Source: an uncultured bacterium (GTDB taxonomy: Bacteria > Omnitrophota > Omnitrophia > Omnitrophales > Aquincolibacteriaceae). From it: 64,000 nt of DNA. The notes under the pieces were generated by a model. The model made no database searches, had not been told where the DNA came from, and saw only the letters and a program-made list of their open reading frames with translations. Positions within the stretch are counted from its first letter, which is position 1. Each line of letters starts with the position of its first letter. This document shows positions 1,519 through 61,700 of this stretch, one piece after another. The translations under genes and the position numbers were made by a program. The DNA lies in contig CAYLPP010000007.1 of assembly GCA_964385615.1 (NCBI GenBank), positions 44,426 to 108,425 of the forward strand. The letters are read 5' to 3'.

Positions 1519-1525
1519 ATTCACC

Positions 1526-19591: not shown

Positions 19592-19749
19592 AGAATCGCC
19601 GTCCACAGCCCTTTATTAAAGGCTTTTATAAAGGTGACTCTAGAAGTATAGCACCCTCTATAGGAATTTTCTAATGACAGGTAGGGCTGTGGAAGGAATG
19701 CTAGTTCTTACTAGAGAATGCTACTTTCCCCTAGGGAGCAATACCAGGC
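19592..19749. promoter_or_regulatory. Palindrome-rich, AT-richer spacer between the two giant genes (candidate promoter/RNA structure)
   Basis: An 11-bp perfect inverted repeat, tccacagccct (19602-19612) / agggctgtgga (19683-19693). Smaller palindromes tatag-N6-ctata (19647-19663), ctagt-N4-actag (19701-19714) and ccctaggg (19729-19736). On the coding strand, TAGAAA-N17-TATACT precedes the RBS region. No U-tract after the giant-gene stop. Confidence 0.3.
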
Positions 19750-40700: not shown

Positions 40701-43700
40701 CGGCGGCTCCGACAACGCTTGCAATCGATGAAACCAGGGTTATAAAATTCGAAACCGCGGTCACGACTGTCTGCACAATCGGCGCGATAAAGGCCTTATA
40801 CACCTCAACCACGACCCGGCCAACGATATAAGCGGCGACCGCCACTACAGTCACTGCGGCAAGCGCGTAACCCGCCAGTGAAACCAGTGAAACGATTTTG
40901 CTGATCAAAGTCTTAGCATGCCAATTGGCGAAACCAAGACCGGTCAAAAAGTTGGAAGAAGCCGCGAGACGGTTCATCAAATTTCCGAAAGAACCTTTCA
41001 GGAAATTCCGGTATTGAATGCGCCAGAAAGCGGCGGTATGCAGAAGCGAGCGCTGAACCGCTTTCGGCAGGAAAACCCAGACGCCGGCCAGCGGTGAAAG
41101 CACAACCTGGCCTACCCCATAAACCAGCTGAACCGCGCCGAGCGCGATCGAACGCGCCACCCCGGCAAACCCTGTCCCCAGGCCGACTACAATGTTCCGG
41201 ATGCCGGTCGCGAAAATTTGAGCGCCGGTCGCATTGGCGCCCGCGTGGAAAAGAAGTTTACCGACGGCGGAAGTTCCAACCCCCCTGACCATAACTCCTG
41301 TGAAAGCCGCTCTCAGAATAAACGCGGACCCGATAATCAGGAACGCGGCCAGCCCGATGCCTTTAAGGATGTCACTATCCAGGAGATGACCGATAACGGC
41401 CACCGCGAGCGCGGCCGTAAGACTCGCCGCCCAGGCGTTTCGGACAAGGAAAGCTCCAACGTGGTAAACCGCGAAAACAGGCGCCGTCACCAGCACAGCG
41501 AAAACGCGTCCAATCACGCTCTTGGGCACCCATCCGCCGAACAGGAGTTTCATAAAACCATTTTGAGCGGCGAATTTTTGAAGCGGCAAAATAACATTTT
41601 TGAAAATCCAGGTGCCAATAACTTTCAAGACCGCCAGGGCGCGGGTACCGAGGGCGACCATGGCCGGAATGATTCTGGGGCCCAGGATCACCAACGCGAC
41701 CGTGATAAAAATCTGAGTTAACCCGACAAGCAGGGGCGGTACCAAAACCGCGGTCATGGCAATAAAGGAGCTGATCCGGAAAACACTGCCGAGAATCGAA
41801 GTAAACGCGGCGGTCGGCGCCCATCCTGTGAAAAAGATGGCCATATAGCTCTTCAGCAGGTCCTTAACTCCCACTGGGAACGTCGTGGTAAACACTTCAA
41901 CCGCGAACGCGGCAATCACGCGCGCCGCCCCAACAATCGCCCGGATAACAAAAGGCGCCGCGACAACCAAAAGGACGGCAACCGCGACCGCGGCTAAAAC
42001 GGCAACCGCGACCCCCACGGTTCCGGCAATCGCGAAGAAGACACCGACCGAGACTGCCGTGATTACACTTATCGTCGCGACAAAGGCGGTCACGATTAAA
42101 ATCTGTGTCACCAAACCGTGCGCCGCGAAACCCGTAAAGAACGTGTTAAAGAACTTAAGTGCCGTATTTTTAAAGAACGTGGCAATTTTCGTTACGGCAA
42201 AAATAGCGGCGTTCAGCAGCTGCATTCCGCCGTTAGCCGCCATAAGAGCAAGACCGGCGATCACCTGCCCGAAACCGTAGAAAATTTGCACAAGAGCCAT
42301 TCCGACACTCTTGACGCTGCCCCAGATCGCCGTTTGGAAGACAGCCTTGAAAACCGTAACGACTCCCCTTACCGCCATCGCCGCCATGGCAGTGATGGCC
42401 GCGGGAATTTTAACGAAAATAAACCGGAGAGCCGCGCCGACGTTAAACATGACAATCGACGTGGCTGAAAGCATGGCCAGGAAGAGGCCGTCCACAAACG
42501 CCGAGGCTTTATCCTTTTCATTTCCAGTCGCCAGACTGAACCCGCTTCCAAAAATCTCAAAAGGCACCAGAAGAATTCCACCGACCATCTGAACGCCCAT
42601 GACCACGTATTTACCAATGGAGGTTTCCGCGATGCTCGAGAGAAGGCCTTTCAGGCCTGTCACTTCGAGAACCACGATAAGCGCCGCTACAAACAACCTG
42701 GCGATCCCTGACACAAGATTTTTAACGAAACGGCCGAAGGCATTATCGAGGACCGATTCATAAAGCATGCCGGTCACAAAACCCGCGGTATAAAGAATCG
42801 TTCCTATAATGGCCGCCTTGGCCACAAAAGTCAGCTGAGCCACAATAATCGCGCTGGCCAACTGCGCCGCGGTCAAACTCGCCACAGCACCCGTCGCGCC
42901 GGAAGCCGCGCCCGCGGCAGCAGCACTGCCGCCGCCGCCCAAACCACCGCCCGCCGTTAACTGCGCCGCCGCCGCAATAATACCGATCGCCATGACGGCA
43001 ACACCAATCGCCTTGATCGTATCGCTGCCCACCGCGTAACCAATTCCGACAATCGCCAAACCCACCAGGACAAAAAACGCGGCGCCGGCTAACACAGCGG
43101 CCGTCACGCTAGTCGTCGCGATTCCCAACCCCGCGAGAATCGCCGTTCCGACACCCGCGGTGAAAACCGTAATCGCGATCACAAGCGCGATCACTAAAAC
43201 AACCGCCGCGACCTTCGCGATCACCGGCAAACTGCTCCACCATGTTTTGAAGTCGGTCACGATAATCTGAGCGACGCTCGTCTTGGAGTATTGGCTCATC
43301 TGCATGACACCGCGCGCATCCGCCGTGAAACCTTTCGACTCCAGCTCCGTACTGGCGCCAAAAATCCACTTAGAAACAAAACGGTCTTCCGACTTGCTCT
43401 TGACGGTACCGTCGGCTTTGTAAGTCCAGGTCATACGGGTTTCGTCGCTGGGCTTGCCGATGCGGATATCAATCAGGCGGCCGAATTTATCCACCTGAAT
43501 ATAGGTGCGGTCCGTTTCATCCTGCTTGTACTGATTGATTTTCATGGCATCAACCAGATTTCCGTCTTTATCAAACGTAAACGAGTGCGTCTGGCCCGGC
43601 ATCCGTTTAACGTCAGCCATGTCAATTTCCCCATGACCGCGGACCGTGAATCTCCTGACCGTGCCGGGCCGGTTCAAATAAAATTCAATACTGCTGAAAC

Positions 43701-46700
43701 GCTTGCCGATCTGAGAATCAGAATTAAACAGAGCCACATACGACATAACAGGCACATGATCACCATTCGGCAGACGGTCATACTGACTCTGAAACTTCAC
43801 AAGCATGGTGGCGCCCATTTTCCGCTCTTCTTCATTGGCCGGAGTGTGCAAAGGCACCATTTCAACCGCGTCTTGTTCAGAAAAGCTGACTTTGGCTTTG
43901 GATCCGTCAAACACATACTGTTCACCCAGATGGTTGTTGAACAGAACCGGCTTTTCGACCTTATGCATCTGGTCGTCTTTGGCCAGCCAGTATTCAAAGT
44001 GAATCAATTTATTATTTTTATCGCGGATGGTGTTCCTCATGGTTTTTTCATCCCAGCTGACACCGATAAACGAGGTGTGATAAGTTTCTCTAGATGAAAC
44101 GGAACCATCCACATGGTAGACATTTTCTTTGTAAATCTTGGACGTTTCGTCGCGCGCTCCACGGGTGTAGGTAAGATCACCCTTGCCGGTCATGGCGAAA
44201 TACTGATCACCAACCTTATAGAAGACGGAATTTTCAATATCTACTTTGTTGTGAGCGTCTTGAGCCGACTCCATATAACTGCGCGCTCTCGAAAAACCAA
44301 CCGTGTCGTCACCAAAGGCGAAATAGGCCGTGGGAGAAATGACAGCCAGCAGAATATTTTTAGCGGTCGAATTCGTTCTTTCTTTATCGATATCCTTAAG
44401 CTTCGTGCCTTCGATTACTTTTCCGTCTTTATCCACAACCTTCTGGACGCCGCCGCCGTGCATACTGACATAAATCGCGCCATCCTTATTTCCGCCTTCA
44501 GGAAGCCTGCGGATGACTCTTCCCTTGTCATAATCACGTGTGTCGGCCGTGTAAACTCGTTTATCCCCATCACCCGTATACCGGGTGATGACCCGGCCTG
44601 AAGAATCGAGCGCGATCGTTTCGCCGTTTACTTTAATTTTCTGGGAGGTAAAGACCCCATTATCGCCGGCTTCGATTTTCGCGTTGCTGTCCGTCAAAGC
44701 CGTCCAGAAAGTCATGTCTTTAGGACCGCCTCTGTTAAAGTGCGACTCCCCATCGTCTTCCGGTTTTTCAATTTTGGCGCAGAAGCCCGTGCACCGGCCG
44801 ATCACAAAGTTTCCGCTCAAATCGCTGACAATATATTCACCTGAGGTCGAAGGAATCCCCTGATTTTCACCCGCCCAGATCATGCGGTTGTTTGCATAAT
44901 CCCTGATATGGGTGGCCCAACCGCCGGCAAGAGGCTGACGGAAATTTCCATTGAAGAAACTCTGCATATTCGCTTCCGTGAACCGCGGGTTTACGGCTTG
45001 GCGCCAGGCAGCGACAAACCGGCCATTGTGGAAATACCCGGTCAGTACAGATCCGTCTGACATCACGCTTGCGAAATTTGTAATCTGATTCGAGGCGCCG
45101 CCCAGGAAATTTTTATTCGCCGCGTCGAAGTAAACAATGTTCCCATTATTTCCCAACTGGCCCAAGTACTTCCCGCTGATCATGGATTTCACATAAAACC
45201 CGCTGACCATGATGGAACTTCCGCCATCCGTGCGGTCCTGACCTGTCTGATAAATCCGGGAATTCGCGTGATCATTAACATCCATGGAATACTGCACTCT
45301 GCCGTTCTTATCGGTAAACCAGGAAGTGATCAGGTCGTAGCCTTCTTTTGAATTCCCATTAAGCTTAATGCTGTGCTTAACCCCTTTTTCATCCGTCAAT
45401 TCAATGAAAGCATTGCCTTTTACCCATAAGGAGTTACTCTCACCCGCGGACGGCAGTTTAAAGACTCCATCTTCACGGTATCCCGTAATCTTGTGCGTAT
45501 CCTGATCTTCGATCAGGTATTTGTTTCCCGCAACCTGGGAACCGCCTTGATCATTTCGAAAACTATCCATGACCCGGTAAATCTGGCGAGTCTCATGGTT
45601 AACAACATTCAAGGCGTACCTGGTCCCAAGCCCTTGCTCAGGAGATTCAAAAATGCGGGCCGTCACGATAAATCCGGCTTCGTTGACCATCACATCCACG
45701 GCCTGACCGCTTCCGGTGTGGGTATAGGCCGCGTAAGGATGACTGACTCCTTCACTTGAAGCATGACGTCCGCCGACGTGCTGGAGCGGAGCAATCGGTT
45801 TACCCCACCCCTGATTAACACCAATCACCCGGCCGCCGTTCAATTCCGCGACCAAAGCTTCCCGCAGTTTGCCGCTGCCGACCCCAGAAGCTGAAAGGTA
45901 AACACGGCCGGAAGAATAATCCGTCAGGTTGGTCAGCATCACACCGTCGCGGGAATACCCCATCAAATCTCCGCTGGAGGTCAGGTACATTTTGTACTTG
46001 CCCTTATCGGTTTCATCCGTGCTGGTGAACTCGATAGTATGCCCAATCATTAACAGTTCGGGCAGACCGTCAAGCTCTGAATACCCCCCGCGGAATTTGT
46101 CACTATTCAATGAAGTGTAAGTCTCATCGCCCGGAAGACGGATTCCCGTAATTTTTCCCGTGTAAAGATCGCGGACAACCACTTGTTTCGCGAACCTCGC
46201 GACTCCGCCGTTATTTTGATGCGCGGGAAGTTTCTGATGGATATCGTAAATAACCCCATTCGTGTAGTCCGTCGCGCCCATAATGGGCACCACACCTCTA
46301 TCATTCTTATCTTCTTTTCCGTAAGCACCGACCAAACGGTTATCATCGTCAAAGTAGAAAATGGCCGTTCCCGCGGCAGAAGCGCCTTTAACCGTCATGC
46401 CGGTTACAGCCTTATCGGTCCCAATGGCACCCGGGACTTGATTCCCCTGAGCATCCAGTAAGTACCGCATGGTGAAGTTCGAGATCGGGTTCTTCGGATC
46501 CGAATTACTGGCGCTGAAGGAATAAAAGACACCGTCTTTAATCACACCTTCGTACTGGAAGCTGTCGCCGATACGTACCGGGCGGATCCCTTCAATCTGC
46601 TTGCCGTCCGGGGTAATCATCATGTAGACCCGGCCGGTTTTATAGTCGGTCATGTTTGAGAGGAATGTGGTTGAGCGGTCACGGCCCTGGAGCATTTCAC

Positions 46701-49700
46701 CCATGACATAGCCGTTTTCATCCAGATACGTCGTCACATACCGTCCGCTGTCGCCGTCTCTTCCGCGTTCCCGACTGACATAAAAGGAACTTGCCGTCAG
46801 ACCATTCGCGCCGGGAATCTGCGCGTACTGCGCGTTGGTGCCGGTAAACAGCCGAAGCGCCGCGAAGCCGTCCGTTTGATTCCAGGTACCGATCATCCGG
46901 CCAGGATCCGTCATATCGGCAACACCGACATTCCAGCCGGTCATCCCTCCGCGCTGACCGAACATCAGAATTCTTTGGTTCGCGTTGTCATAGACATTGC
47001 CCAGAATTACTTTATTTTCCGTCTGAGCGTCACGGGTCATGACAAACCGGCCCGCTTCATCAAAGTAAAGAAGGCGGTCATTGACTTTGTCTCCGAAAGG
47101 CTTGTCCGTCTGGTAATAACTCATGGCGCTCATTTCATATTCGGTGCTCACACCGCCGGCGTCAGGATGGGGCGTTGGACCGGTATGACGGGCGCCATCC
47201 ATATAGAACCTCCCGCGTTCATCTAATTTTTCCCGCAGAGGGTTAAGCAATCTCTGGCCGGCAGGATCCACGTAGTTAAAAACCGTGTTTGTATCGTAGC
47301 TGAAAATTTTCCGGACACTGTCATTACGCTTATAGTCGCCTTCACCGACAACCAAAAGCCGGTTTTGATTGTCTAAAATCAAATACTCAGAGCCGGGAGT
47401 TCCCCCAATGCCGTCGTGAACCAGTTCCAGGAAAGTAACACCCGTATAGCCGTGGCGCCCGCGAAGCATAGGCTGAAGCATGTCATTAATGACTGGGCAA
47501 AGTTTGTCGTCACCGAAACGCTTGTCAAGAGCCAGAGGAACACGGGCTCCGTAAATATCATCACGGTAAACTCCCTCACTGCGGCGAACTCTGACGCCGG
47601 CCTGAAGCGCGATTCCGGTAATCTCACCAGTCACCATACTCTTCACCTGGATCGCGAAACCGTTGGTATCTCCATAAGGCTGATACAAGGTCTTGGTCGT
47701 ATAGTTGGCACCGTAGGTAATCTTGGCGTTTTTAATGACTGCGGCGAGAGCCTTGGCATCACCCTTCGCGGCGGTAAACCCGGCCGTAAACGCTTTCCCG
47801 GCCAGAGAGACCCGGTTCTGCTTATCAAGCGTGATGAACTCCGTCTCACCCTTGCCGCCCGGAATCACACGGCGGAACGATCTCACGCTTTCAACAACGA
47901 CGGCAGGATGGTTCTTATCTTTTGATTTGCGTTCGGCCTCCTTCGAATCCACTTTCTCTTCAACCAGTTTCGCGCCGGTATACGCGTCAACCGCCGTCAC
48001 AAAATCACCGGAAGACAATTCGAATTGAAGCAAAATGCCCTGCGAACCCTGCGCCAGCGACCACTGCTTATTCGCGCTGATATTCAGGGCCCAAGTAATC
48101 TTGTTGTTTGGTTTGGCCGCGAAGAAATTCTGACTCGTCCCGGCCAGCACCTGGCGGTTGAGCGCGTCCAGACCGATAAATTGGCCTTCATATTCATAAA
48201 TGGTGGCCGGACCCACGAAAACTTCCCCTGAAGACGGATTGGCGGAAAAGCGTCCGGTCACTTTTTTACCGAGTTCGTTATAAACATCCGTAAAAGAACC
48301 GGTGGAAATCTTGGAAGAAATGAACAGTTTGTCAGCGTTTTGGGCCGCGGACCACTGCTGATCCGTCTTGTAATTGGCCGCGTAAGAGACTCTCAAAGAG
48401 GTTTTAAAATCACCGGTACCCCGAAGCACGACACGGTCTTCGGCATCCAGCGCGATGAATTCATTTTCCAGAGTCGACGGATTTTTACGGATGAAAACAA
48501 TCCGGCTTTCCGTTTTAATATCTCCGCGTTTGATATCTTTCGCGGTATCATCCGTTACGGTTCTATCGGGCGCTTTGCCGGTATGCGCGTCGAGCATATT
48601 CACGCGCAGACCCGAGTCCATGTTCGTTATCTTCATAAATCCGCCGATCGCGGACCCGGAAATTCTCTTTTCATAATCCGCGAAATACGTCAGGCTGAAA
48701 GCCGGTAATTCCTGCTTCTTCAAATCACCGTTACCAATCGCGAGCACCCGGAACTTTGTATCCAGGACCAAAAACTCTCCGGTCTCAATATCATCGCCGA
48801 CCGGGATTCTCCGGACGGTCTGAACCGTTTCATCTTTTTTACCCAGCTCCATGTCGCCGACCTTCAGATTCTGATCGGTTCCAATAGTCAGGCTCGTTCC
48901 GCGCTGAGCATCGTAGACGCCGAAGCGCAAGCCGGTGTCCATATGACTCATCATCAGGAAACCGCTGCTCTGAATCCGGTTCCATTCGACACCCGTTTCG
49001 AAATTGGCGGCAAAATCAATAAAGAAGTTCTTCGTTCCGGGCCGGAGATAATCCCCCTGACCTGACAGCACGGTGCGGTTCTGCGCGTCCAGGGCCACGA
49101 ACTCGCTGGTTCCGTCAAGACCGACACGGGCGTAAACCGCGGTGCTCTTGGTTGAAATCCCGTTGGTTCCGAAAGAAATATTCTGTTCAGCCTTGTCCGT
49201 CTTGGGCTTAATTTCCGTTCCGCGCTGAGCGTCATACATACCCTTGAATTCCCCGGTCGAATTCGTCACCGCGCGCAGAATTCCGCGTTTGTCACGTGAC
49301 CACATCATGTTAACCATCGGGTCAAAGTTGACCGCGAAGGTGATCATCGCGTTGACATCCGTGCCCAGCTTCGTCCAATCCCCGTTACCGCTCATGACGA
49401 CTTCATTATTCGCGTCCAGCGCGATGAAGGTCTGAGACCCGTCATGACCTTTAGTCACATACACAACGGAGGATTTGGTTTTAATGTCTCCCTTGCTGAC
49501 ATTTTTAGTCGAAGCATTATCAATCTTTTCAAGTTCACTGCCGGTGCGGGAGCTGAAGATTCCTTTAAATTCACCGGTCTGCATGGAAACGGCTTTCAGG
49601 AAACCATCCGCCGCCGCGCTCCAGGTCATTTTCGTCGCGTAGTTGGCCGCGTAAGTAATATTAAACATGGGAGCCGTGGGCTTCGTAAAATCACCCGTTC

Positions 49701-52700
49701 CCGTCAGGCTTACGCGAAGTTCACCGTCAAGCATCAGGAATTCAGAAGGCGAAGCGTCTTTACCGGAGGTTTTAACGTACACGCGCCGGCTTTCAGTCGT
49801 CACCGTGCTTGCCGCTTTGGGATCACGCTTTTTATTCAGCGCGTCAATTTCAGCCTTTGTCATATCCCGGCCGGCGATGACATTTCCAGTATTGGAATCA
49901 CGGACTTCATCCAGACGTTCACCTGAAGAAATAACGCTGGTTACCAGGAAGCTGGCGGATCCGGCGGCCCGGGACCAGACACGGTCACGTTCATAGTCCG
50001 CGGCGAAGCTGATAAGGAGGCTTGACCCCTGGACATTCGAGCTCCCCCAAAGATCACGGTAATTGCCCGTTCCCAGCAGGACGACGCGATTCTCAAGATC
50101 AAGAGCCAGGAACTGGGAACGTCCACCCGACAGAGGGGTACGGGAGTAAAAATTCTCAGCGGCAATTTCATTATCTTTCCCGGTGCCCAGCTTGATTTTT
50201 CCCGCAGTCGGAGATCTTTGAGGCTTGATTTCATCGCCCGTTTGACCGTCAAAAACACCCACAAACGCGTTGGCCGAAATTTTCTGCCCCAGCATGAAGC
50301 CTTCTCCAGCGTTGGACCACCGCATATCAACCGCGGCATTGTAGTTGGCAACCAGACTCAGCTGGCGGAGCAGAGGTTCTTTAAAGTTTCCGTTACCGGC
50401 CAGGACCAGACGGTTTTCCGCGTCAAACGCGATAAATTCCATCTTGTGGCCTTCAGGAGAAAGCCGGGTGTAAACAGCCACGCTCTCCGTTTTCATCTGG
50501 CCAATCTTGATATTTTTCGCGGCGTCAGTTGTATCCGCTTTGAGTTCAGCCCCGGAATGAGCGTCATAAACGCCGAATTTCTCGCCCGTCGCGGTACTGC
50601 TCATCCGCATAAACCCGCGGCTGACCAGTGTCAGCTGGCGCTCAAGCGTATAGTTCGCGGCAAAAGTTAATTCAAACATGGCGGAGCTCGGATGGAGGAA
50701 ATCACCGCGCCCGGCGAGAACAATGCGGTCTTCCCCGTCAAGGGCCACAAAGTTGGTCTGCTTTGAATCAGGATGCTCGATCACATAAAACTTCTTGGAT
50801 TCCGTTTGAAAATCGCCGACCTTCATATTATTGACACCGCCGGCGTGCGCCGCGACTTCCTTACCGGTATAAGGATTAAAAACACCTTTAAACGCGCCGG
50901 TGTCCATATGAGTTGAATAAAGCGCGCCGTTACGGTTCACCCATATCTGACGAACCGCCGGGTCATAATTCGCGGCATACATAATCTGGAGGACGGTGCC
51001 CTTACGGCCGTTCTTGCTCATATCGCCCAGAACATAAAGAGACTCACGGCCTTCAGAATCAAAGAAAACGTTTTCCAGTTTCCCTTCACGGTTCTTAACG
51101 GTCCAGCCTGATTTTGACTGAGTCTTCACGCCTTCAATATTGGCGTAAGCGGTCACGTCAGCATCCGTCAGTTTCTTTCCGGTGATTCCCTTCTGGTTCA
51201 ATACGGCAACCAGTGTATTGTCGGAAAGTTTGCGCACAATCAGGGCTTCACCCGTGCGGCTGGCGGTCCAGCTTCGGTCCTGCTCAAAATTAACCGCGTG
51301 CATAATCGTAATGTCAGCAGGATGGCTGATAATATCGCCGGAAGCGACCAGCGTAATCCGGCCTTGGTCGTCATACAGATAGCTTTCACTCGGTCCGTCA
51401 TGAGAGCTGACCACGGCCGCGTGAGTCGCGTTGACGGTAACCGCCCCGCGGTTATAACCGCGGATATCCTGAACTTTGATACGGACATTTTTGGAGGGAC
51501 TGACAAACCCAAGCAGGTCGCCGGTAAAAATACTGCGTTTAATCAGCGCTTCTCCGCCCTCACGCTGATAAATAAAGCCGTTCGCGCTATCCATCGCGTA
51601 GAAGACCTTCTCCATTTTCCCGGAGCTGGTGACCGCGCAAAGTTTCAGGTTGGCGTCAAAATGAACCACAACCTCACCTTCTATTTTTCCGTCCACAAGC
51701 GTTTTGACTTTCCGGCTGTAAACAGACTTAATCGTATCCGTTCCCTGATTGCTGTTAAATTTAATGGCCTGATTGTTCGCGGCCAATGCTTCGAGATCGC
51801 CGGCACCGTCCCAGAAGCCGATCAAATCACCGCCCATGGTCATAACCGGGAAATGGCCGTCCACAATTTGACCGCCGCCTTGGACAAGAACACCAAAAAC
51901 CACATTGTTCTTGCGGTCAATAATGTTGGAGTAATACTTCAGGGTCGGACCCATTTTTTCTTTGGATGAAGTCGTGACATGCTGGCCGTCATCCGTCAGG
52001 TGGATAATCCGGGGACCATCCGGCATTTCGAGCTGAATGTAGGCGCTGGTGCTGACTCCGGTTGACTCATGCACCGTGGGAACAGCTGAAATTGAAACAC
52101 CGGTCTTAACACCCTTCGAACTGATACTTCCAAGCATACGCCCGGTGTCCATGCTGGAATAAGCCGCCGGTCCTTTCAAATCTTTGAAAGAAACCCCCTG
52201 CAGGGTCGTGTGAATAATCGTCCGGTCTCTGAAATTAAAAATATCCAATGAATAAGCTTTCGCGGGATCGGACATATTTCTGGCCGTCGCGACACGGCAG
52301 CCGAATGAGCAGTCCAGGAAAACGGTGTGGTTCTGTCCTCCGTCGGTCTGAACCCCTTCAAGAATCGCGTCCGTTTTGACGCCGCCGAAATGCGTGGCAG
52401 AAAACGTGGTGACGCTCTGAAGACCTTCAAAAGCATTCCATTTCCCAATGATGACACCGCGTTCCGTATCCTCAACCAGGACATTGTTCGAAACCCCGCC
52501 GAACATGGTCATCATGTAACGGCGATGATTGGTATGATCCATCAGATCAATCACGTGGTGAAGAACCGGCTGACCGTCCTTGCGGACCTGCCCCGTATTA
52601 AAGGTGCCGCCGACCAAACGGCCCATGCTATCAAGATAAATCGTGATCGGTTTTCCCGCGCCTTCCTTGCCGATAACGCCCTCAATGACCATCGCGCTTG

Positions 52701-55700
52701 AGAACGCGCTTCCGGTTCCCGAAAGCCACTGCACCTGTTTAACCTTGGCGGCAACAATCTTACTGCCGTCCCACGAACCGAGAATACGCTGTGTCCGGAT
52801 ATCCATCACCGGAACATTGGCTTCCAAACCGCCGGCCAGTGTCACCATGTAGCTGATGCCCTTCGTGTGATCCGTAATATCCGTGATGAATTGAACGTTT
52901 TTAGTGCCGTCGGCTTTAAACTGGAATTTTTCTCCAAAAACCAGTTCCGCTCCGACAAAACGGCTCATGGAATCAAAATGCATGGTCACCGCTCCGCGGT
53001 TGCGGTCAACAACCTGCAGTTCTCCGGCAGCAGCCACGGAAATATCGTTCATCTTCACGGTGTGAAGGGTTTTCTGGATCGCCACCATCTTCCCGTTCTG
53101 CATCACTCCAAGCATATTTCCGGAAGCGATTGAACGGATAAAATAAGAGCCCGCCGCAAGACTGACTCCTTCCGACTGGGTGTGGAAAGACATCATCCGC
53201 GCGTGATCAAAAATAGTGGAGTCCCGGCCAATATGGGTGCTGACCAGCGGGTGATTGCTTCCCATATTCAGGTAGATCGCGACTTCCTTGCCCCCTTCAG
53301 GACCGGAACCGACGCTGGTGCCGGAAAGAACCGTATTATAGGAAAGAGTGGATCCTCCGTCCGGAGTCGTTTCGGTACCGGTTCCGCTCATGAACTGGAA
53401 ATTTTCACCGATCCGGATATCAAAAATGTGCGTGAATCCAGCCGTCAGCATTTGGGTGCCGTTCATCTTCGTCACGTCAGTATTTTGACGGGCATGGCCC
53501 ACGGCGGCAGCGTAACTGTTAACCGTTAATTCCAAACCTTCGGAGTCGGTAAATTTAAAAACCGGCGGACGGCCTTGCCCATAAATCGCCGTGGCTTTCG
53601 ACGTAATGGGGATTTCGGTCATCTTCCCGTTAAGCATTCCCTTTATCGAACCTTGATAGTAAACACGCTCCACGGTTTTCGTTTTGGTTTTTTCATTGTA
53701 AGAAATAAAGCTCGTGCTCTTGTCTCTGTGAGTGATCGCGACACGCAAAACTTTTCCGGCGGCATTCAAATACACCACACGGTTACGGCGGTTTGTATCC
53801 ACACGAACGACCGTCGGAGAGAGGTTGTGCTCAACGGAAAGCGTCTGATAGTTCACATTCGCGAGACTGACTGTCGTACGCCGGCTGAAATACTGGGTAT
53901 ACATGGAAGTGGAGATATAAACGCCGGTACCGACGATACCTTCCGTTGACAGGCTGACAACCCCCCACTTATCAAAGAAGGTCCAGGAAACACGTACGGC
54001 CGATTCCGGGAAAAGCTGCCCTATCTGACCGACGACACCGCCGAAAGCAAACCCTTTAACATCAAGCTTCGGATTCGCGGGAAGCTTCAGCCCCGTACTC
54101 AATGTGCCTAACCCGATAATTTTTCCAACCAATTTCATCAGAGTGGTGGAGATAAGACCAAAGTTCACACCGCCCATCAACGCGTTATAAAGCTTGGAAA
54201 CAATTGTTCCGGTTCCGGGCCCTCCGCCGGTAAGCGGATTCATGTTTTTTGAAGCCAGGTACTGCTGGACACCATAAATCAGCTGAACGGCGGAATGCTT
54301 TCCTCCGGTAGTCAGATCCGCGAAAAATCCGCGCATCAGCCCTGTCAGCGCGGCCGCGTCATTAATGGTCAGAGAATCCTGGCCCATGAACATCACCGCG
54401 CCGATCACGGAGGCCGAAATCGCTTCGCTGTTTCCGGTTTTGAAAATATCAAGCAGAGGCGCGAACAATTCAGGACGGCTTTCAACCTGCTTGCCAAAAG
54501 CCTCGACACGGTTAATAAGAACCCCGAAATCGAGCTGGGAGAATTTAAAAATCTGAACCCGGACATTGTGCGGAGTCGCGAAGAAATTACGGATAAAATT
54601 AACCGTCGTGGCTGAGACTGTCGGATTCAGGCTGTTGAGTTTCGGTGAAGATCCGGCGAGATCTACAGCTTCCAGAAACAGCTGTCTTACATCATTAAGA
54701 TTCAGATCCAGGCCTTCGGCCAGAGTCTTGGGAAGGTTCGGGTTTTTCTGGATCAGGATCGGATAAATGAAAGCGATCGTCGCTCCGCGCAAACGCTGGG
54801 TCGCCGCCGCGTCCAAACCGCCCGACTTAGTCGCTACTTCTAAAAGCGAGCCGAGAATCGCGGCCTGATCCGCTGAGGTCAATTTGTCAAATTTATCAGG
54901 ATTTTCAAAAATAGCGTTAATAACATTCGTCGCGAGCTCGGCATTGCCCACCAGATTCAGATTTTTGAGTATCTGAGGCGCGACCGCGAACCGGTCTTCC
55001 ACACCCAGCGCGAGAAACGCGTTCTTCGCTTCCCGAGAAAGCGAGCGGACAGCAGCCGCGACAACAAAAGCCGGTAAAGTGGGGTCATTCGCCTTCACTT
55101 TTCCAAGGAATTCAAGCAATTGCCCCGCCTGCTGAACCGCGACCTTGTTATCCCCCGCTTTGACCAGGTCTTCAACGACCGTCACACCTTTGCTTACGAG
55201 GTCTCTGCGCACATCCTGAGTCAGATTCGGAAGCTGAAGGTAGGCCGTAATCAAGTTCCCGTGCGTTTCAAGCGTGAGACCCGCCGGACGGACGGGCGCC
55301 AGCACGATATCCGTAATAATTTTGTGAAGTTTTTCAGTCTGAGCCGCGGCTCCGCCTCCCGCGCGCAGAACAAGAATCGCCGTCGCGGCTTTATCTCCGA
55401 GATCCGTAATACTGTCCACTGCCGCGGTCAGTTTTTCAATGATGGCTCTTTTAGCAACCGGATCGGTGAACTTCAAAAGCGCCAAACCGTTTTGCACAAA
55501 GGTTCTTCTTTCACCGTCATTGGCGAACGCGGGAGGATTAAGAATCTGCGCGGAAAGGAACTGAACCGCTTCAATACGCTGAGCGCCCGTAAGGAGATAA
55601 ACGGCGTCAATATTCTGGAAAAGTTCAGGAATCGTCAGCGTGCCTTCCCCCTTGAAAACAATCGCCAACCGGGCGGTCAGGGCCTGCTGCTGATCCTCGT

Positions 55701-58700
55701 TAAGATTCCGGACCAGCAATCGGGCGTTTTGAGCGATCGCTTTATCCACAAATCCAGTCTCGATCGCTTGTACAACCCGGTTCCCGATAAATTCCGTAAG
55801 ATCTTTGTCAATCGTTCCTCCGCCCGCGTTGAAAAACGCGATCGCGGCGTCAACCCGAAGCTGGGCTGTGGCGGCTTCAGGATTGGGTCCGCCGATCACA
55901 ATCAGGTTTGAAAACGCTTCTTTAATATCCGCGACCACGGCCGCCTTTAAATCGAGCAGATTAAAACGATTCGCGTAACGGGCGACCTGAGCTCCAATTT
56001 GAAAGTCCGTAGGCGTCACATTTCCCGTCGACAGGACTTTTGCCTGAACCAGCTTGCTAATTAAATTCCGGACAAAATCAGTATCATTTTTAGTATTTAA
56101 ACCTCCCAGCCCGACCGTAACGGCCACTTGAAGCTGGGTTTTCTTATCCAGGAAAGTCGAAAGGCCCTGATCCGCCGCCTTAAGGATATTGACAAGCAGG
56201 TTGTTGGCCTGTTTCTTGAGGTCTGAGTTGGTAAACGGACTTTGAACTTTTTGCGCCAGCAGAACCGTCAACGCCGCGCGCTGCTGGTCAAGCGTTCCGC
56301 CCGCTTCAAAAATCTTCTGAATATCTTTGTTATTTTCCGCCGCTTTCTTGATCAGATCCTGAAGTTCAGCCGCGGTAGGAGCTTTGATGCCCAAAGCTTT
56401 CAAAAGAGCCTGAATCGCGGGGTTGGCCGCGAAATCCCCCATGTTCAGCAGAGCGACCAATTCCAGCAGCTGCTTGGTTTCTTTATTGTGTTTCTCTTTC
56501 TCAATCGCGGCCTTGCGGGCTTCTTCCAGTTTCTTTTTATCTACCGGCTTGGCGTCCCGGCGCTTGATGCCGGATTTGTTCAGAGCCGCTTCTTCAGCCG
56601 CTTTCTTATCCGCCAACGCTTTCTGCTCGCGCTGAACTTCTTCAAACGTCCTGACCGTCCAGCGGGGCTTCTTGCCCATCATTTCATAAACCTGTTCCTG
56701 GCCGTAACGGGCGACATCAAAGAGAATCGACATCAGGTAAATCACGATCGCGGAATTACTTTCACCGGACGCCGGATCCACACTGCCAAGCTTGACTTTC
56801 AGCTGGGCCAGTTTAGTTTGATAACGCTGTTTCGCGTCTTTTAGACGGGTATCCCGGATATTGACCAGGTTGTTGGGGTCGTCAGGCGCCGGGCCTTCTT
56901 CCGGAGTAGGCGAAGCATTCGGGTTATTTTTGTCGTAATCGGTGTCAAGCGGGAACGAGTCCTTGTCTTCAGCCCAGCCGTCAGCCAATTCTTCAAGATC
57001 ATCACTAAGCGCTTCAGACAGATCGTGAACCCCTTCATGATAGGTGCGCCAAATGACATGCCAGTGTCCTTCGATCCAAACTTGACCTTCCGCGTCCCAG
57101 TGCCCATACATGTATTCAAAGTAAGCATTGTAATCGTCATTGCGCTGAGTGCAGGAACCGTCCAGAGGCTCATAGCACCCGCCTGAACCAATGAGAATAT
57201 ATTTTCCAAGAAGGGTGCTTTCATCCGCCCAGGCATCGGTACGGGCCGTGTGGTATATCTCAAGAATGTCATAGTAGAACTGAACTTTCGCGTCTACATA
57301 GGCGTTGGTATAGGTTTCCATCCGGCTGCGCAATTCTTTCGCGTTGAAGAGCGCGTTTTCGTAAATCCCAATGCGCATATCAAACTCAGCCGCGTGTTCA
57401 AAAAACATCCGGGACATCCGGGCCATGAATTCAGGAACATTGAAAGAAAGCATCGCGATATTGGCGAAAAACATCCGCTGAGCCTGAATATACCAACGGC
57501 CGGCAACTTTGGAAGCCGTGCGGAGCTTTTTATAAACATAGAGATCTTCACGGATATTGCCGATCCCGGGAACCGTGATCGACATAAAGTCGTCAAACAT
57601 GGCCTGCGCGCCGTTCGCGGTTGTACCGCCGAGAATATCGTCACGGATGTGCTTGTACTTCTCCATCCGGTCTTCATCAATCTTGTCGAGCATCTCGTAG
57701 AAGCCGTCACCGCCGTTCAAACTGGTGTTGAGGGCTTCAAAAACAGCGCTCACATGATCTCTGAAAAAGGTGATCTGGGATTCATAATAATCTTCGCGCC
57801 GAAGGTCAGTATCATCTTCAAGCTTGTGCGCAAGATCCGCTTCTTTCTTGGTGTGATAGTTCTCACGAGTCGGACGCGGACCAATCAGCGAGAAGCCGTT
57901 TGGCCAGACCCCAGCCCAAACCGAATGCCAGTTCAGCGTAATGCTGTGATTTTCACCCTGATCAACCACAACCCCATCCCTGGTATGAACCCAGCTGGTT
58001 CTCCAGGCATTTCCAATTTCCGCATTCCACCACTCATTGGTCCAGGTTTCAACATGGTGCGCGCCAGGATGATAAATAAATTGTCCGCCCGCGCCACCTT
58101 CCACGACCACAGGCCCCTCTGGTCCCGGCGGCATGGGGCCAGGATTGTCCGGAACCCATTCCCAGGTACCTTCTTCATCCCATTCGTTAGTCCAAGTATC
58201 CGTGTTATAAGTCGCAGCAGCACTGGGAATCGCGTCAATTTGCTGCTGATAAGAGTTATCGATCTGCTCATTAAGATTCTGTTCAATGTCATCAATATCT
58301 TCGGTAATCTTGGCTTTCATCAATTCATAATCACTGCCCTCGCCGACCTTACGTTCGTCTCCTTCCCAAAAAATCAGTTTAGAAACGTAGTCGTCACGGA
58401 TTGCTTTGAGTTCCATAATCAGATCATCTTTAATCCCGGGAATCACATTCTGGAAAAGATCATCAACCTCACTCACAATATCATCGTGATAACCCTGGAA
58501 ATTGCTTTCCGGGCCAAACTCAGCTCCCTCCCACGCCGCGCGGGAGGCATTGATAGCGTTATTGGCATCATTTTCGGCGTTCATAATATCCGTCGAAAAT
58601 TTGTTGTAAGCGTTGTTGATCCGTTCCCAATAACTATTCTGAAGCTCTAAATTGGTTTGATAGTCTTCCTGCTCCTGCTTGTAACGGTCCCATTCTTTTC

Positions 58701-61700
58701 CCCGGTCTGAAGAATAGGTCTTGGCAAGATCATGCGTGCTAAGAAGGTAGTCTTTGCGGGCTTTCACCAAATTGAAACGCTCTTCCGCGCCCAGATAATC
58801 GAGATTATTCGAGCCATTCGAGGCCATGCCGTCAACCCCTCGCTGCTCCGGCTGAATCACCGCGTATTCAGGAGGAACTCCCAGATACGGAGGGGTCATT
58901 CCCGCTTCACCATAACAGCCAGGTTCGTAGTAGGTGTAGCACCCGTAACCGCCGTAGGTGTTGTACCAATATCTCCAAGGCATCCAGGGAACTTCTCCGG
59001 GGCCGGGATTATTGTGTTCATAGGGGTAGTAGCCATAACCGTAAACATCAAACGGGTTATAGTAATAATAGTAGTTGTAACAGTAATAACCGCAATAACC
59101 GTAGTTGTAATACGGATCAGAAACACTGGCCGGCGTAATCTGGAAAACACCTTTGGCTCCGCCCCGGATATTCAAAATGTTTTTCATTTTGGTGGAAGCG
59201 GCATCCGTTGCGGTTTTCAGCTGTTTCTCGAGGTCAATTTTATTCGCGGCAAACGCCTGCGCTTTACGCTGAATCACGGAAGTCCAGACACCGTAGCAGC
59301 CGAATTCGTTCTGAGGACAATCCGTAGTGCCCGGGTCAAGAAGAGTCGCCATCAAATCGTCAAGTTCAGCCCGGTAATCATAAAGCCCATAGCTTTCAAT
59401 TCCGTCCGCGTTCACGTACCCGCCGCCGTCCATCATATTTTCAAACTCAGTCATTTGAGCTTCCATGAAATCGCCGATCCAAACTCCATAGGTGCCGTAA
59501 AAATCATCGTAGGGGCCGTAGATTTGCTTAATCCCTTTAAGATTGTGAGCTCCGATGGCGGCGGCAATATCAGCCTCCGCGGTAACATCCCCGTCGGTCG
59601 TGTCAAAAAGCATCGCCTGAATCGCGGCCCAGCGTTTGACCCGCTTTTCATAGTTGGCGTCAAGACCGCTTTCTTCCTGAACATTGACGCCGTATTCAAT
59701 CGTATTATTTTGAAGGTCGGTCAAAAGAGCCGATTGATACGTATAGAGTTTTTGTTTATCAAAACCAGCCTTAAGATCAGCGTGATTGCAGGCATAACCG
59801 CTGTTAGCCAGGCACGCGTTGAAAAGGATATACAACGCGCTGTTCCCGCCGAACAACCACCACCAATTTTGATAGCCGTCCGGGATCGCACGGTCATTTG
59901 TGTTTATAATTTTTACGGCCGCGTCAAGAATCTTGCGGGAGTAATCGATGCTGTTTTGATATTTACGGTCAATGACCGTCAACTTCAAAGCGATCAGACT
60001 GAAGCCGTGGGTGTAGTAAGCCTGGACTTCCTTCTCAATATCTTCCTGGTATTCATCATATTGAGTTCCCAAGGCGTCGATATAATCCTGGTGAATCTTT
60101 TCCAGGGTTTTGGTCACTTCCGCCGTATAGTTCCCCATGGTCGCCAGAGGAAGCGATAATCTCTTGTCCAGCAAGGTCGTCTGCGTTGCCACAGTATCCG
60201 CATAGACACTGTCATTTCGATTGATCCGGTCGGCTGAAAAGATATCATTCATCGCGGCCCCGAGACTGCTAAAACGGATCGCCATGTCCCATTCCTGCAC
60301 GTACACATACCCGCCGGCCGTCATGACAAGACCTTCCGCATTTTTCTGGTAATCGCAAATCTGGGCGGGGCCGCAGTTTCTATTGAACGGAGCTACGTTA
60401 AAAATCGGCTTATCAACATAATTAAGGAAAATATTACCGACAGATGATTTATAGTCGGAGAACGCAAAATCAAACCGGAACCAGAAATCATCGCTGGAGG
60501 ATTCCATATCAGACCGGTAATTAGGCATAAAACCGTCGATATCCCCCTTCAGCGCGGTCTCTGCCGCGGTCGCTGACGCGTTGTAAGCCGCTTCCGCCGC
60601 GACATAGTCGTTCCAGACGCCATCCATCCGGGCGAGAACATCATCCGGCGTATCCCCGACAGCCGGATCCGCGGGCGGATATTTCACGGTCGCGTCATAG
60701 TCCAGCGCTTCTGAGAAAACAAATTTCGCTTTTCCGATCCTGGAGTCAAAATCTGCGAAAGCAATCGTCTGAGACGCGAGATAAATCCGCCGCTCAACGC
60801 TCTTGTCTGTTTTGAGCGGGAAAGAGTGGTTTCTGTAAAAGTCATAATCGGAACGCGATCCCCGGTCATTGGCAATGATCGCCATCTGAGCGGCATACCC
60901 CTGGGTCATCGTCGCGGTATTCAGTTCAGCCGCGATTTTAGCGTAGTCGGTAATATGAGAAATCAGAGTCTTGAGATTTTTCTCCATCCGGTTGAAATAA
61001 TTGGCCGTGGATTCTTTTTTAACTTGACCGGCATTGTCAGGGTCCCAGTAGGCGACAACATTTCCACCTTGAATTTTAGGCTTGGGAATCTGCATGCTCT
61101 GCTGATTGATGTAAACCGCCGCGCCGTTGACTGATGTGAATTCCGGCACCAGCTTGTCCTTATCGACATATTCATAAAGTTTTGATTTAAGCTGCTGTCC
61201 AAGCGCGTTATTCTCGTCACCCTTACCGTAAGCCTCAAAAAGCTCTTCGAGCTTATCCTTCACGCTCAAAGCGCCGAAGGCGTTCGGCTTCGAAATATCA
61301 ACGTCCTTGTTGTACTGATCAACCGCGTCTTTAACGTCCTGCTTGTAGGTTGTATACGCCTGATCTTCGGCATTACCCGCGTTCAGAGCATTTTTATACT
61401 TGTCAGCCGCGGCTTTGACCGCGTTCACTAAGGTCGTCTTCGCCTGATTGATGGTGTTCGTATAAGCCGTCAGAACCGGATTCAAAGCGGCTAGAAGCGC
61501 GGCTTCAGAAATGCCCAGCTGATTGGTCAGGTTGGTGTAATTCGCATTGTCAGGCCAATAACCGCCGTTAAAGAGCGCGTCATCCACTTTATCCGCAGCC
61601 ATGTTCATAAAAGTCTTGTATCCGGTCAGCAGCTTGGGGCGAAGAGACAAACCCGGGGTTTCGTATTTATCCGTACCCGCGTCATCCCAGGTGAAATCAG

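What the first reader, a model, noticed from the sequence alone, without database searches (positions are those of the whole stretch)
58880..59125. Extreme Tyr/Gly/Cys low-complexity island (YYNYGYCGYYCYNYYYYYNPFDVYGYGYYPYE…)
About 80 residues are more than 40% tyrosine with interspersed Gly, Cys, Pro and Trp. Such composition is characteristic of adhesive, cross-linking or phase-separating sequences (mussel-foot-like, dityrosine cross-linked cuticle/spore-coat proteins, amyloid-like zippers). It is striking inside a bacterial surface megaprotein, where it could mediate covalent or pi-stacking attachment to prey, a substrate or a matrix.
Basis: seen in the sequence. Interest (0 to 1): 0.55.

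Follow-up and report, generated by a model that had tools for sequence, protein, structure and literature searches.

The report
Aromatic sticky patch in giant protein
A real, extremely tyrosine-rich stretch sits in the probably cell-external part of a 14,700+ residue membrane protein from an uncultured Omnitrophota bacterium, and because its only detectable relative has a tryptophan-rich stretch at the same spot, it is most likely a general aromatic contact patch and not a tyrosine cross-linking site.

Summary
The tract is real. On the minus strand, window 58880-59125 encodes aa ~1620-1702 of a 14,745-aa ORF (19750-63987) that runs off the window. Tyr is 31% over the 83 quoted residues (not >40%), 17/40 in the best window and 17/31 in the core, against a 3.1% background (chance ~1e-11). 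It is not a DNA repeat and it keeps the 44-kb frame intact.

An exhaustive search of 1.84 billion proteins found one informative relative, on metagenome scaffold L001 (~27% identity, five collinear blocks). Between the same two flanking anchors L001 carries 'SSCQYFPWGGGFGGYWDTGWWWFWGGFYYGG'. That island is also the strongest aromatic peak of its protein, but it is Trp/Gly/Phe-rich with only four Tyr. What is conserved is therefore an uncharged aromatic/Gly/Pro island, not tyrosine. The poly-Tyr half is specific to this lineage.

The window holds no tyrosinase, peroxidase or laccase, and published genomes of this phylum lack an aerobic terminal oxidase. Closely paired cysteines, including two pairs in the tract, suggest an extracytoplasmic location.

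Best reading (about 0.45): a non-covalent aromatic patch that contacts a membrane surface, glycan or protein. The main rival is a weakly constrained low-complexity insertion. The comparison rests on one homolog. Interest is moderate to low.

The parts
19750..63987 (-). Giant ORF, 14,745 aa as listed. The frame stays open to window position 64000, so the gene continues off the window, and collinearity with L001 suggests about 1,800 more N-terminal residues.
58819..59112 (-). Whole aromatic/Gly/Pro island between the two conserved anchors, aa 1626-1723 (98 aa: Y 28%, G 15%, P 12%, aromatics 32%, K 0, R 2, D 2, E 6).
59020..59112 (-). Poly-Tyr core YYNYGYCGYYCYNYYYYYNPFDVYGYGYYPY, aa 1626-1656 (17 Tyr in 31). 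Mostly specific to this lineage: residues 1638-1652 fall in an alignment gap against L001. Ranks first of the protein on the Wimley-White interfacial scale (-10.5 kcal/mol per 19 aa).
58909..58992 (-). Trp/Tyr/Gly half VPWMPWRYWYNTYGGYGCYTYYEPGCYG, aa 1666-1693. It holds the island columns shared with L001 (W..W..W, Y.G). Ranks third on the interfacial scale (-9.7).
59080..59094 (-). Cys pair C1632-x3-C1636 (GYCGYYCY), a putative short disulfide loop. C1636 aligns with the single Cys of the L001 island.
58915..58941 (-). Cys pair C1683-x7-C1691 (GCYTYYEPGCYG), a putative short disulfide loop of the same G-C-Y type as C1557/1564 and C2271/2279.
59254..59379 (-). Upstream conserved anchor, aa 1537-1578 (…DCPQNEFGCYGVWTSVIQRKAQAF…). 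On its own it hits L001 aa 3200-3242 uniquely (E = 2.5e-4).
58639..58818 (-). Downstream conserved anchor, aa 1724-1783 (NGSNNLDYLGAEERFNLVKARKDYL…). On its own it hits L001 aa 3346-3403 uniquely (E = 2.5e-4).
39943..43212 (-). Block of about 25 hydrophobic TM-like segments, aa 6926-8015: the membrane anchor, about 5,300 residues C-terminal of the tract.

Best explanation
The tract is the Tyr-expanded, lineage-specific form of a positionally conserved island that is aromatic, Gly/Pro-rich and almost uncharged, and that here contains two short Cys-loops. The island interrupts the otherwise helical N-terminal region of a giant, membrane-anchored, Pfam-dark protein from an Omnitrophota bacterium. 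That region is most likely outside the cytoplasm. The island most likely acts as a non-enzymatic aromatic contact patch. Its exposed Tyr/Trp/Phe side chains, held on flexible Gly/Pro turns and stapled by short disulfides, would partition into a membrane interface or stack on sugars or on other aromatic-rich protein. That partner could be a host or prey surface, the cell's own envelope, or other copies of the protein. Tyr, Trp and Phe would be interchangeable for this role. Shown: the tract exists and is very unlikely by chance; it has a positional counterpart of the same compositional class in a ~27%-identical homolog; cysteines occur in close pairs. Inferred: the extracytoplasmic location, disulfide formation, and the binding function with its target.
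For: (1) In both homologs this anchored site is the single strongest aromatic peak of the protein: 17/30 against a mean of 8.6% here, and 14/30 against 9.9% in L001. (2) Each flanking anchor, tested alone, maps uniquely to the corresponding L001 flank (E = 2.5e-4 each, next best E > 2). These sit within five collinear phmmer blocks (overall E = 5e-19 with Z = 1). (3) The compositional class is conserved while residue identity is not. Here: Y 28%, G 15%, P 12%, K 0. L001: G 25%, W 10%, P 9%, F 7%, Y 6%, K 1. (4) On the Wimley-White interfacial scale the two halves rank first and third of 14,745 residues (-10.5 and -9.7, against -7.8 for the best true TM helix) while Kyte-Doolittle hydropathy is negative. 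The L001 island scores -14.0 against -4.9 for the next segment (mean +4.7, SD 3.5). This follows from composition and is not independent evidence. (5) Mixed Tyr codons and no DNA tandem repeat argue against recent slippage. (6) Of the 31 Cys, 29 lie in 13 spaced pairs plus one triplet: 15 gaps of <=12 residues against a simulated mean of 0.76 and a maximum of 5 in 20,000 trials. Two pairs lie in the tract, in the same G-C-Y context as neighbouring loops. (7) The lineage and protein class fit. The MiaB neighbour's named relatives are almost all Omnitrophota MAGs, and giant TM-anchored proteins of that phylum are proposed to mediate attachment to and degradation of host or prey surfaces.
Against: Only one homolog covers the site, so 'conserved' rests on n = 2. 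The exhaustive search found nothing else, and both hit clusters are singletons. Inside the island only a few columns align (C, Y.P, W..W..W, Y.G); lengths differ (98 vs 69 aa); and the poly-Tyr half has no counterpart. The true N-terminus is off the window, so no signal peptide or first TM segment fixes the topology. AlphaFold without an alignment gave no confident structure (mean pLDDT 37.6). No binding partner is identified.
Confidence: 0.45

Rival explanations
1. Weakly constrained low-complexity insertion. The site is an indel-tolerant surface loop between helical modules of a fast-evolving orphan protein, and the Tyr run expanded there without a specific function.
For: The poly-Tyr half is absent from L001 and falls in an alignment gap, and island length differs (98 vs 69 aa). 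Other aromatic islands of this protein, such as the Trp-rich island at aa ~1985-2036, are also missing from L001. Nothing detectable in 1.84 billion representatives covers the tract. In the published catalogue, 80% of Omnitrophota >=10-kaa protein clusters are singletons. A weak 9-nt x 2.9 repeat underlies GYCGYYCY.
Against: Both homologs have their single top aromatic peak at this same anchored site despite ~27% identity. If the peaks were placed independently, the chance of coincidence would be roughly 1 in 100 windows. Typical neutral linkers are rich in P/T/S/A/E/K, not in costly aromatics with paired Cys. Tyr codons are well mixed.
Confidence: 0.3
2. Self-association element. The Y/G/N-rich segment behaves like a prion-like, FUS-like or high-Gly/Tyr keratin-associated sequence. 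It would drive amyloid-like zippers or condensate or matrix formation between copies of the giant protein, possibly locked by intermolecular disulfides.
For: The composition (Y, G, N, no Lys, few charges) and motifs such as NYYYYYN, GYGYY and GYGC resemble such sequences (high-Gly/Tyr KAPs are described in PMC3269608 and PMC4180150; the resemblance itself is from my own knowledge). The L001 island has a single unpaired Cys.
Against: No aggregation predictor or experiment was available. The two Cys pairs in the tract have the same close spacing as the loops elsewhere, which favours intramolecular loops. There is only a single copy per 14,745 aa. The L001 island is Trp/Gly-rich, which is not typical of steric zippers.
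Confidence: 0.12
3. Substrate for Tyr-specific covalent chemistry (dityrosine or DOPA/quinone cross-linking, or Tyr sulfation), as in spore coats, oocyst walls, resilin or mussel foot proteins.
For: Very high local Tyr density. A sulfotransferase gene lies in the window at 2878-4581.
Against: Tyr is not conserved: the L001 island has 4 Tyr in 69 residues. No tyrosinase, peroxidase, laccase or Cu-oxidase domain is found in the giant protein or any neighbouring ORF. The island has no Lys and few acidic residues next to Tyr. In the relative L002 the sulfotransferase sits inside a Wza/Wzz/Wzy/flippase/glycosyltransferase cluster, so it belongs to exopolysaccharide synthesis, and L002 has that cluster without any giant gene. 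Published complete Omnitrophota genomes lack an aerobic terminal oxidase.
Confidence: 0.06
4. Assembly or sequencing artefact.
For: Low-complexity regions are error-prone. The homolog L001 has an apparent frameshift in G-runs just upstream of its island.
Against: The tract is in frame within a 44-kb ORF. Both flanks are collinear with an independent homolog. Codons are heterogeneous and there is no long tandem repeat.
Confidence: 0.03

Closest known systems
Giant membrane-anchored proteins of Omnitrophota (West-Roberts et al. 2023, bioRxiv 10.1101/2023.11.21.568195; Nielsen & Lui 2026, bioRxiv 10.64898/2026.06.07.730766)
   Same: A single ORF of >10,000 aa. A long N-terminal part without TM segments, then a dense TM block, then a large C-terminal part with Walker A and DEAQ motifs. 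The lineage is inferred to be Omnitrophota. The protein is essentially Pfam-dark and a sequence singleton, like 15% and 80% respectively of the published catalogue.
   Different: No SecA_DEAD, dockerin, TSP3 or C39 domain is detectable. Neither paper mentions tyrosine-rich or low-complexity islands. No T2SS/T4P or glycoside hydrolase genes flank it in the window; the neighbours are a phosphorelay and an EPS cluster.
Membrane-inserting aromatic loops: the Trp-rich undecapeptide ECTGLAWEWWR of cholesterol-dependent cytolysins, and the Gly/aromatic/Cys fusion loops of class II viral fusion proteins (from my own knowledge, not tested)
   Same: Short, uncharged, Gly-rich stretches with clustered Trp/Tyr/Phe and a Cys or disulfide staple. 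Very favourable interfacial partitioning energy.
   Different: Those loops are 10-15 residues at the tip of a defined beta-domain. This island is 70-100 residues with no confident fold and no sequence homology. Membrane binding is untested.
High-glycine/tyrosine keratin-associated proteins (PMC3269608, PMC4180150)
   Same: Tyr + Gly + Cys composition with GYG/GYGC-type motifs. These are matrix proteins thought to act through aromatic contacts and disulfides.
   Different: They are small stand-alone mammalian proteins with no homology to this one (no Pfam match at E <= 10). Here the sequence is one island within a giant bacterial protein.
Tyr-rich, oxidatively cross-linked wall proteins: Bacillus spore-coat proteins (PMC7944565) and Eimeria oocyst-wall GAM56/82 (PMC2726925)
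   Same: Locally very Tyr-rich extracellular structural sequence.
   Different: Those systems depend on Tyr and on oxidases or peroxidases. Here Tyr is replaced by Trp/Phe in the homolog, no oxidase is nearby, and the lineage is probably anaerobic.

Membership tests
Omnitrophota giant TM-anchored proteins (West-Roberts 2023 class) | Single ORF of >10,000 aa | tested here: met
   14,745 aa without a stop, open to the window edge.
Omnitrophota giant TM-anchored proteins (West-Roberts 2023 class) | Numerous transmembrane helices | tested here: met
   29 Kyte-Doolittle peaks above 1.6: about 25 in aa 6926-8015 and 4 in aa 11854-12151. This is a hydropathy scan only; no dedicated TM predictor was used.
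Omnitrophota giant TM-anchored proteins (West-Roberts 2023 class) | Divergent SecA DEAD helicase domain after the TM block (present in most members) | tested here: inconclusive
   GTGIGKS at aa 10490 and DEAQ at aa 10618 are present. However, there is no Pfam hit at E <= 10, no PDB sequence hit at E <= 10, and the AF2 single-sequence model has pLDDT 39, too poor for a fold search.
Omnitrophota giant TM-anchored proteins (West-Roberts 2023 class) | Encoded in an Omnitrophota genome | tested here: met
   The neighbouring MiaB has a 100% identical NCBI protein on a 114-kb contig, and its named homologs at 61-64% identity are almost all Omnitrophota/Omnitrophica MAGs, with one labelled Verrucomicrobiae. 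This is an inference from a single marker, not a phylogeny.
Dockerin-type / Archaeovorin subtypes | Dockerin, TSP3, discoidin or C39 peptidase domains | tested here: not met
   Pfam finds none across the whole protein.
Dityrosine/DOPA cross-linked structural proteins | Tyr retained in homologs as the reactive residue | tested here: not met
   The L001 island has 4 Tyr in 69 residues, with Trp/Phe/Gly instead.
Dityrosine/DOPA cross-linked structural proteins | Cognate oxidase (peroxidase, tyrosinase or laccase) encoded nearby | tested here: not met
   No such Pfam domain is found in any ORF of >=100 aa in the window or in the giant protein. The rest of the genome was not available.
Dityrosine/DOPA cross-linked structural proteins | Cross-links or modified Tyr actually present | not testable with these tools
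   This needs proteomics or chemistry.
Mussel-foot-like adhesive sequences | Tyr/DOPA paired with abundant Lys/Arg | tested here: not met
   The island has 0 Lys and 2 Arg in 98 residues.
High-Gly/Tyr keratin-associated proteins | Homology to KRTAP families | tested here: not met
   No Pfam family matches aa 1101-2300 at E <= 10 apart from two irrelevant weak hits. The resemblance is in composition only.
Membrane-inserting aromatic loops (CDC undecapeptide, class II fusion loops) | Clustered Trp/Tyr/Phe with Gly and Cys, and strongly negative interfacial free energy | tested here: met
   Wimley-White ranks first and third here and first in L001. Cys pairs lie in the tract.
Membrane-inserting aromatic loops (CDC undecapeptide, class II fusion loops) | Loop displayed at the tip of a folded domain and shown to bind membranes | not testable with these tools
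   AF2 single-sequence pLDDT is below 35 over the tract. No alignment deep enough for structure prediction could be built, and binding needs an experiment.
Tandem-repeat / microsatellite-derived low complexity | Underlying nucleotide tandem repeat with uniform codons | tested here: not met
   TRF reports only a 9-nt x 2.9 repeat (score 38). Tyr codons are TAC 15 and TAT 11.

The most novel reading that the evidence does not exclude
The island is a dedicated membrane-interface 'grappling' element of a host-dependent or predatory Omnitrophota cell. It would be a disulfide-stapled, Gly-hinged cluster of Tyr/Trp side chains at the far end of a giant surface protein that inserts into the outer leaflet or envelope of the host cell. 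Its function would be analogous to viral fusion loops or the cytolysin Trp-rich loop, but it would have evolved independently, be about ten times larger, and use Tyr and Trp interchangeably between lineages.
Probability: 0.1. Interest if true: 0.7.

Novelty: new variant of a known kind. Interest (0 to 1): 0.35.

Why it matters
Giant Omnitrophota proteins are among the largest proteins known and are almost wholly uncharacterised. Nearly every residue of this one has no detectable family. A compositionally extreme island that is positionally conserved, in a region with no other detectable features, is a short and experimentally tractable handle. Peptides of 30-70 residues could be tested for binding to membranes, glycans or themselves. 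If the island does make contact, it would point to the part of the molecule that touches the host or prey. If it proves to be neutral low complexity, it would show how tolerant these giant ORFs are of costly insertions.

Tried and rejected
(1) Word-indexed homolog searches, with the tract segment and with the two-sequence alignment A1, returned nothing. The second did not even recover P0002, which is in that collection. Candidate lists held 7,365 and 8,000 entries, the latter equal to the scoring cap stated. I therefore treat both as weak negatives.

(2) Scans of genome contigs, metagenome contigs and viral contigs, with the single sequence and with A1, gave pattern matches only and no confirmed relatives.

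(3) Exact look-ups of window proteins, of P0003 and of P0001 found no record. The source contig could not be retrieved, so the missing N-terminus and the read-level evidence are unavailable.

(4) Pfam on the whole giant protein gave only a sub-threshold PDZ match. PDB sequence searches of the tract region and of the P-loop region found nothing.

(5) The two AlphaFold single-sequence models (tract region and P-loop region) had mean pLDDT 37.6 and 39.3. I ran no fold search because it would have been meaningless.

(6) I tested for internal duplication. The mini-island at aa 98-130 (YYPYGYYGPDWQY…C-x4-C) looks similar by eye, but BLAST gives E of about 1-2, which is not significant, and L001 shows no aromatic island at the corresponding place.

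(7) I considered and rejected Tyr sulfation by the nearby sulfotransferase, because synteny in L002 places that gene in an EPS cluster that occurs without any giant gene.

(8) The literature search for the L001 sample name gave only irrelevant hits. Rfam found no RNA families in the window.

(9) My first chance estimate used the wrong tail (>=22 Tyr). It is corrected.
Full report
OBSERVATION. The finding lies on the minus strand, inside an ORF listed as 19750..63987 (14,745 aa). The reading frame is still open at window position 64000, so the gene runs off the window. With aa = (63987 - coordinate)/3, the stated span 58880-59125 is aa 1620-1702.

It is 17/40 in the best window and 17/31 (55%) in the core aa 1626-1656. 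Background Tyr in the protein is 3.08%. The probability of >=17/40, multiplied by all windows, is 1.3e-11, and 300 shuffles never exceeded 10.

The tract is not a nucleotide repeat. Tyr codons are TAC 15 and TAT 11, and TRF finds only a 9-nt x 2.9 repeat of score 38. No other frame is plausible, and the tract keeps a 44-kb ORF in frame. Local GC dips to 0.43-0.47, as expected for TAY and AAY codons.

THE HOST PROTEIN. Pfam finds only a sub-threshold PDZ match at aa 236-290 in all 14,745 residues, even at E <= 10 on selected segments. A hydropathy scan gives about 25 TM-like segments in aa 6926-8015 and four more in aa 11854-12151. Walker A (GTGIGKS, aa 10490), DEAQ (aa 10618) and HERIH (aa 14484) motifs follow the TM block. 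No family could be assigned to them by Pfam, by PDB sequence search or by single-sequence AlphaFold.

Cysteine is rare (31 residues), and 29 of them lie in 13 spaced pairs plus one CxxCx4C triplet. There are 15 gaps of <=12 residues, against a simulated mean of 0.76 and a maximum of 5 in 20,000 trials. In the N-terminal 6,400 residues the pairs are C-x3..10-C, often in a Gly/aromatic context (DCPQNEFGCYG, GYCGYYCY, GCYTYYEPGCYG, GGCYEPLDGSC). Two of them are in the tract. This pattern, the weak PDZ match, and the position upstream of the TM block suggest that the N-terminal region, including the tract, is extracytoplasmic. That is an inference, because the true N-terminus is outside the window.

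LINEAGE AND NEIGHBOURHOOD. Downstream on the same strand lie, in order:
- a 2,656-aa ORF with no Pfam match;
- an HTH-REC regulator, an Hpt protein and a CHASE-PAS hybrid kinase;
- MiaB and YjeF_N;
- a two-domain sulfotransferase;
- a BBP2 porin and a Wza-like exporter.

MiaB has a 100%-identical NCBI protein on a 114,228-bp contig. Its named relatives at 61-64% identity are almost all Candidatus Omnitrophota/Omnitrophica MAGs. The source contig could not be retrieved.

In the closest retrievable relative (L002, MiaB 79% identical), the order MiaB, YjeF_N, sulfotransferase, porin, Wza continues into Wzz/BY-kinase, Wzy, flippase and glycosyltransferase genes. The sulfotransferase therefore belongs to an exopolysaccharide cluster. 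Upstream of MiaB, L002 has neither the giant gene, nor the 2,656-aa ORF, nor the phosphorelay. No tyrosinase, peroxidase or laccase domain occurs anywhere in the window.

The overall architecture is a long N-terminal part without TM segments, then a TM block, then a part bearing NTPase motifs. This matches published descriptions of giant Omnitrophota proteins, which are mostly sequence singletons and about 15% Pfam-dark. Those papers do not mention tyrosine-rich or low-complexity islands.

HOMOLOGS. An exhaustive phmmer search of aa 1101-2300 against 1.84 billion cluster representatives gave only two weak hits. Both lie downstream of the tract (query 983-1189), and neither covers it. One of them, P0002, lies on a 44,962-bp metagenome scaffold (L001). 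There it directly follows, and overlaps, a 3,420-aa gene.

Translating L001 showed that the two called genes are one homologous region, split by an apparent frameshift in G-runs at about L001 9760-9790. The stitched L001 protein (4,061 aa) aligns with our aa 136-2606 in five collinear blocks (overall E = 5e-19 with Z = 1) at about 27% identity. It also has paired cysteines.

Each flank of our tract, tested without the island, maps uniquely to L001. Our aa 1537-1578 hits L001 3200-3242, and our aa 1724-1783 hits L001 3346-3403. Both have E = 2.5e-4, and the next best hits have E > 2.

Between those anchors L001 reads NGNPTGPPAGGGGSSCQYFPWGGGFGGYWDTGWWWFWGGFYYGGSQPPSNLRVDHWKFVDLDSRDGHNQ. This 69-aa island is the top aromatic peak of that protein (14/30). 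Its composition is G 25%, W 10%, P 9%, F 7% and Y only 6%. Our island between the same anchors is 98 aa: Y 28%, G 15%, P 12%, with no Lys.

The aligned columns inside the islands are few: one Cys, Y.P, W..W..W and Y.G. Most of the poly-Tyr half falls in a gap. No further homologs could be found in the genome, metagenome or viral collections or through cluster membership. The word-indexed protein searches were uninformative because the candidate list was at or near the scoring cap.

INTERPRETATION. What is shared at this position is a compositional class, not tyrosine: clustered aromatics on a Gly/Pro-rich, nearly uncharged background, with Cys. On the Wimley-White interfacial scale the two halves of our tract rank first and third of the whole protein (-10.5 and -9.7 kcal/mol per 19 residues). 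They exceed every real TM helix (best -7.8) while having negative Kyte-Doolittle hydropathy. The L001 island scores -14.0 against -4.9 for the next segment. This quantifies the composition and is not independent proof.

I therefore favour a non-covalent aromatic contact patch (membrane interface, glycan stacking or protein-protein cohesion) in the probably external part of the protein, at about 0.45. The main rival, at about 0.3, is a weakly constrained insertion in an indel-tolerant loop. The lineage-specific poly-Tyr half and the other unshared aromatic islands support that rival. The coincidence of the two proteins' top aromatic peaks at one anchored site argues against it.

Self-association (amyloid, condensate or KAP-like matrix) remains possible, at about 0.12. 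Tyr-specific oxidative cross-linking or sulfation is unlikely, at about 0.06. Tyr is not conserved, there is no Lys, no oxidase is nearby, and the sulfotransferase belongs to an EPS cluster. Published complete genomes of the phylum also lack an aerobic terminal oxidase. An assembly artefact is unlikely, at about 0.03, but read data were not available.

LIMITS. The comparison rests on a single homolog. Topology is inferred without the N-terminus. Both structure predictions were low confidence. The taxonomic assignment rests on one marker gene's neighbours in sequence space.

VERDICT. This is a new variant of known kinds (aromatic/Gly low-complexity contact elements, and giant Omnitrophota proteins). 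Interest is moderate to low (0.35).

Noticed in passing
window 19750-64000 (-): A 14,745-aa ORF with essentially no Pfam match (only a sub-threshold PDZ at aa 236-290, window 63118-63282). The frame stays open to the window edge, and collinearity with L001 implies about 1,800 further N-terminal residues off the window.
   Followed up: partly
whole giant ORF; e.g. window 59080-59094, 58915-58941, 59296-59319, 57151-57177: Of the 31 cysteines, 29 lie in 13 spaced pairs plus one triplet (15 gaps of <=12 residues against 0.76 expected). The N-terminal pairs are C-x3..10-C in Gly/aromatic contexts and are probably disulfide loops. The C-terminal ones are CxxxC (aa 9965), CxxC (aa 11643) and CxxCx4C (aa 14202) and may be metal sites. 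The homolog L001 shows the same pairing.
   Followed up: partly
window 59809-59865 and 57880-58035 (-): There are two further aromatic islands. WWWLFGGNSALYILFNACL (aa 1375) ranks second on the interfacial scale and is partly conserved in L001. A Trp-rich island (aa ~1985-2036, TWTNEWDEEGTWEW…) lies in a segment (aa ~1960-2040) that falls mostly in alignment gaps against L001.
   Followed up: partly
window 62779-62811 (-): A run of 11 consecutive glycines (aa 393-403) in the N-terminal region.
   Followed up: no
window 47590-51516 (-) vs L001 18003-20963: Beta-rich repeats of about 105 aa (aa ~4100-5500, motif F[IL]ALD..NR[VL]VL.G.GDF) match a separate 986-aa gene in L001. What is one fused ORF here is split in L001 into at least three genes, with six small opposite-strand genes in between.
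   Followed up: partly
L001 9760-9790: An apparent frameshift within G-runs splits the L001 homolog into two overlapping gene calls just upstream of its aromatic island. It could be a sequencing indel or a real disruption; this could not be decided.
   Followed up: partly
window 11636-19606 (-): A 2,656-aa ORF directly downstream of the giant gene has no Pfam match, a single Cys, and no counterpart in L001 or L002.
   Followed up: partly
window 6936-11507 (-) vs L002: An HTH-REC regulator, an Hpt protein and a CHASE-PAS-HisKA-HATPase-REC hybrid kinase sit between the giant-gene block and MiaB. The closest relative (L002, MiaB 79% identical) lacks the giant gene, the 2,656-aa ORF and this phosphorelay at that position, so the whole block looks like a variable or inserted region.
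   Followed up: partly
window 892-4581 (-): A two-domain sulfotransferase (Sulfotransfer_1 + Sulfotransfer_3), a BBP2-type porin and a Wza-like exporter. Synteny in L002 continues into Wzz/BY-kinase, Wzy, flippase and glycosyltransferase genes, which suggests a sulfated exopolysaccharide cluster.
   Followed up: partly
window 32500-32520, 32125-32136, 20524-20538 (-): Walker A (GTGIGKS), DEAQ and HERIH motifs lie in the C-terminal half. None could be assigned to a family by Pfam, by PDB sequence search or by single-sequence AlphaFold. They might be a very divergent SecA-like motor and a metalloprotease.
   Followed up: partly
method note: The word-indexed protein search failed to return P0002 even when the query alignment contained its sequence, apparently because the candidate list reached the 8,000 scoring cap. 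Negative results from that tool for low-complexity or very long queries should not be trusted.
   Followed up: yes
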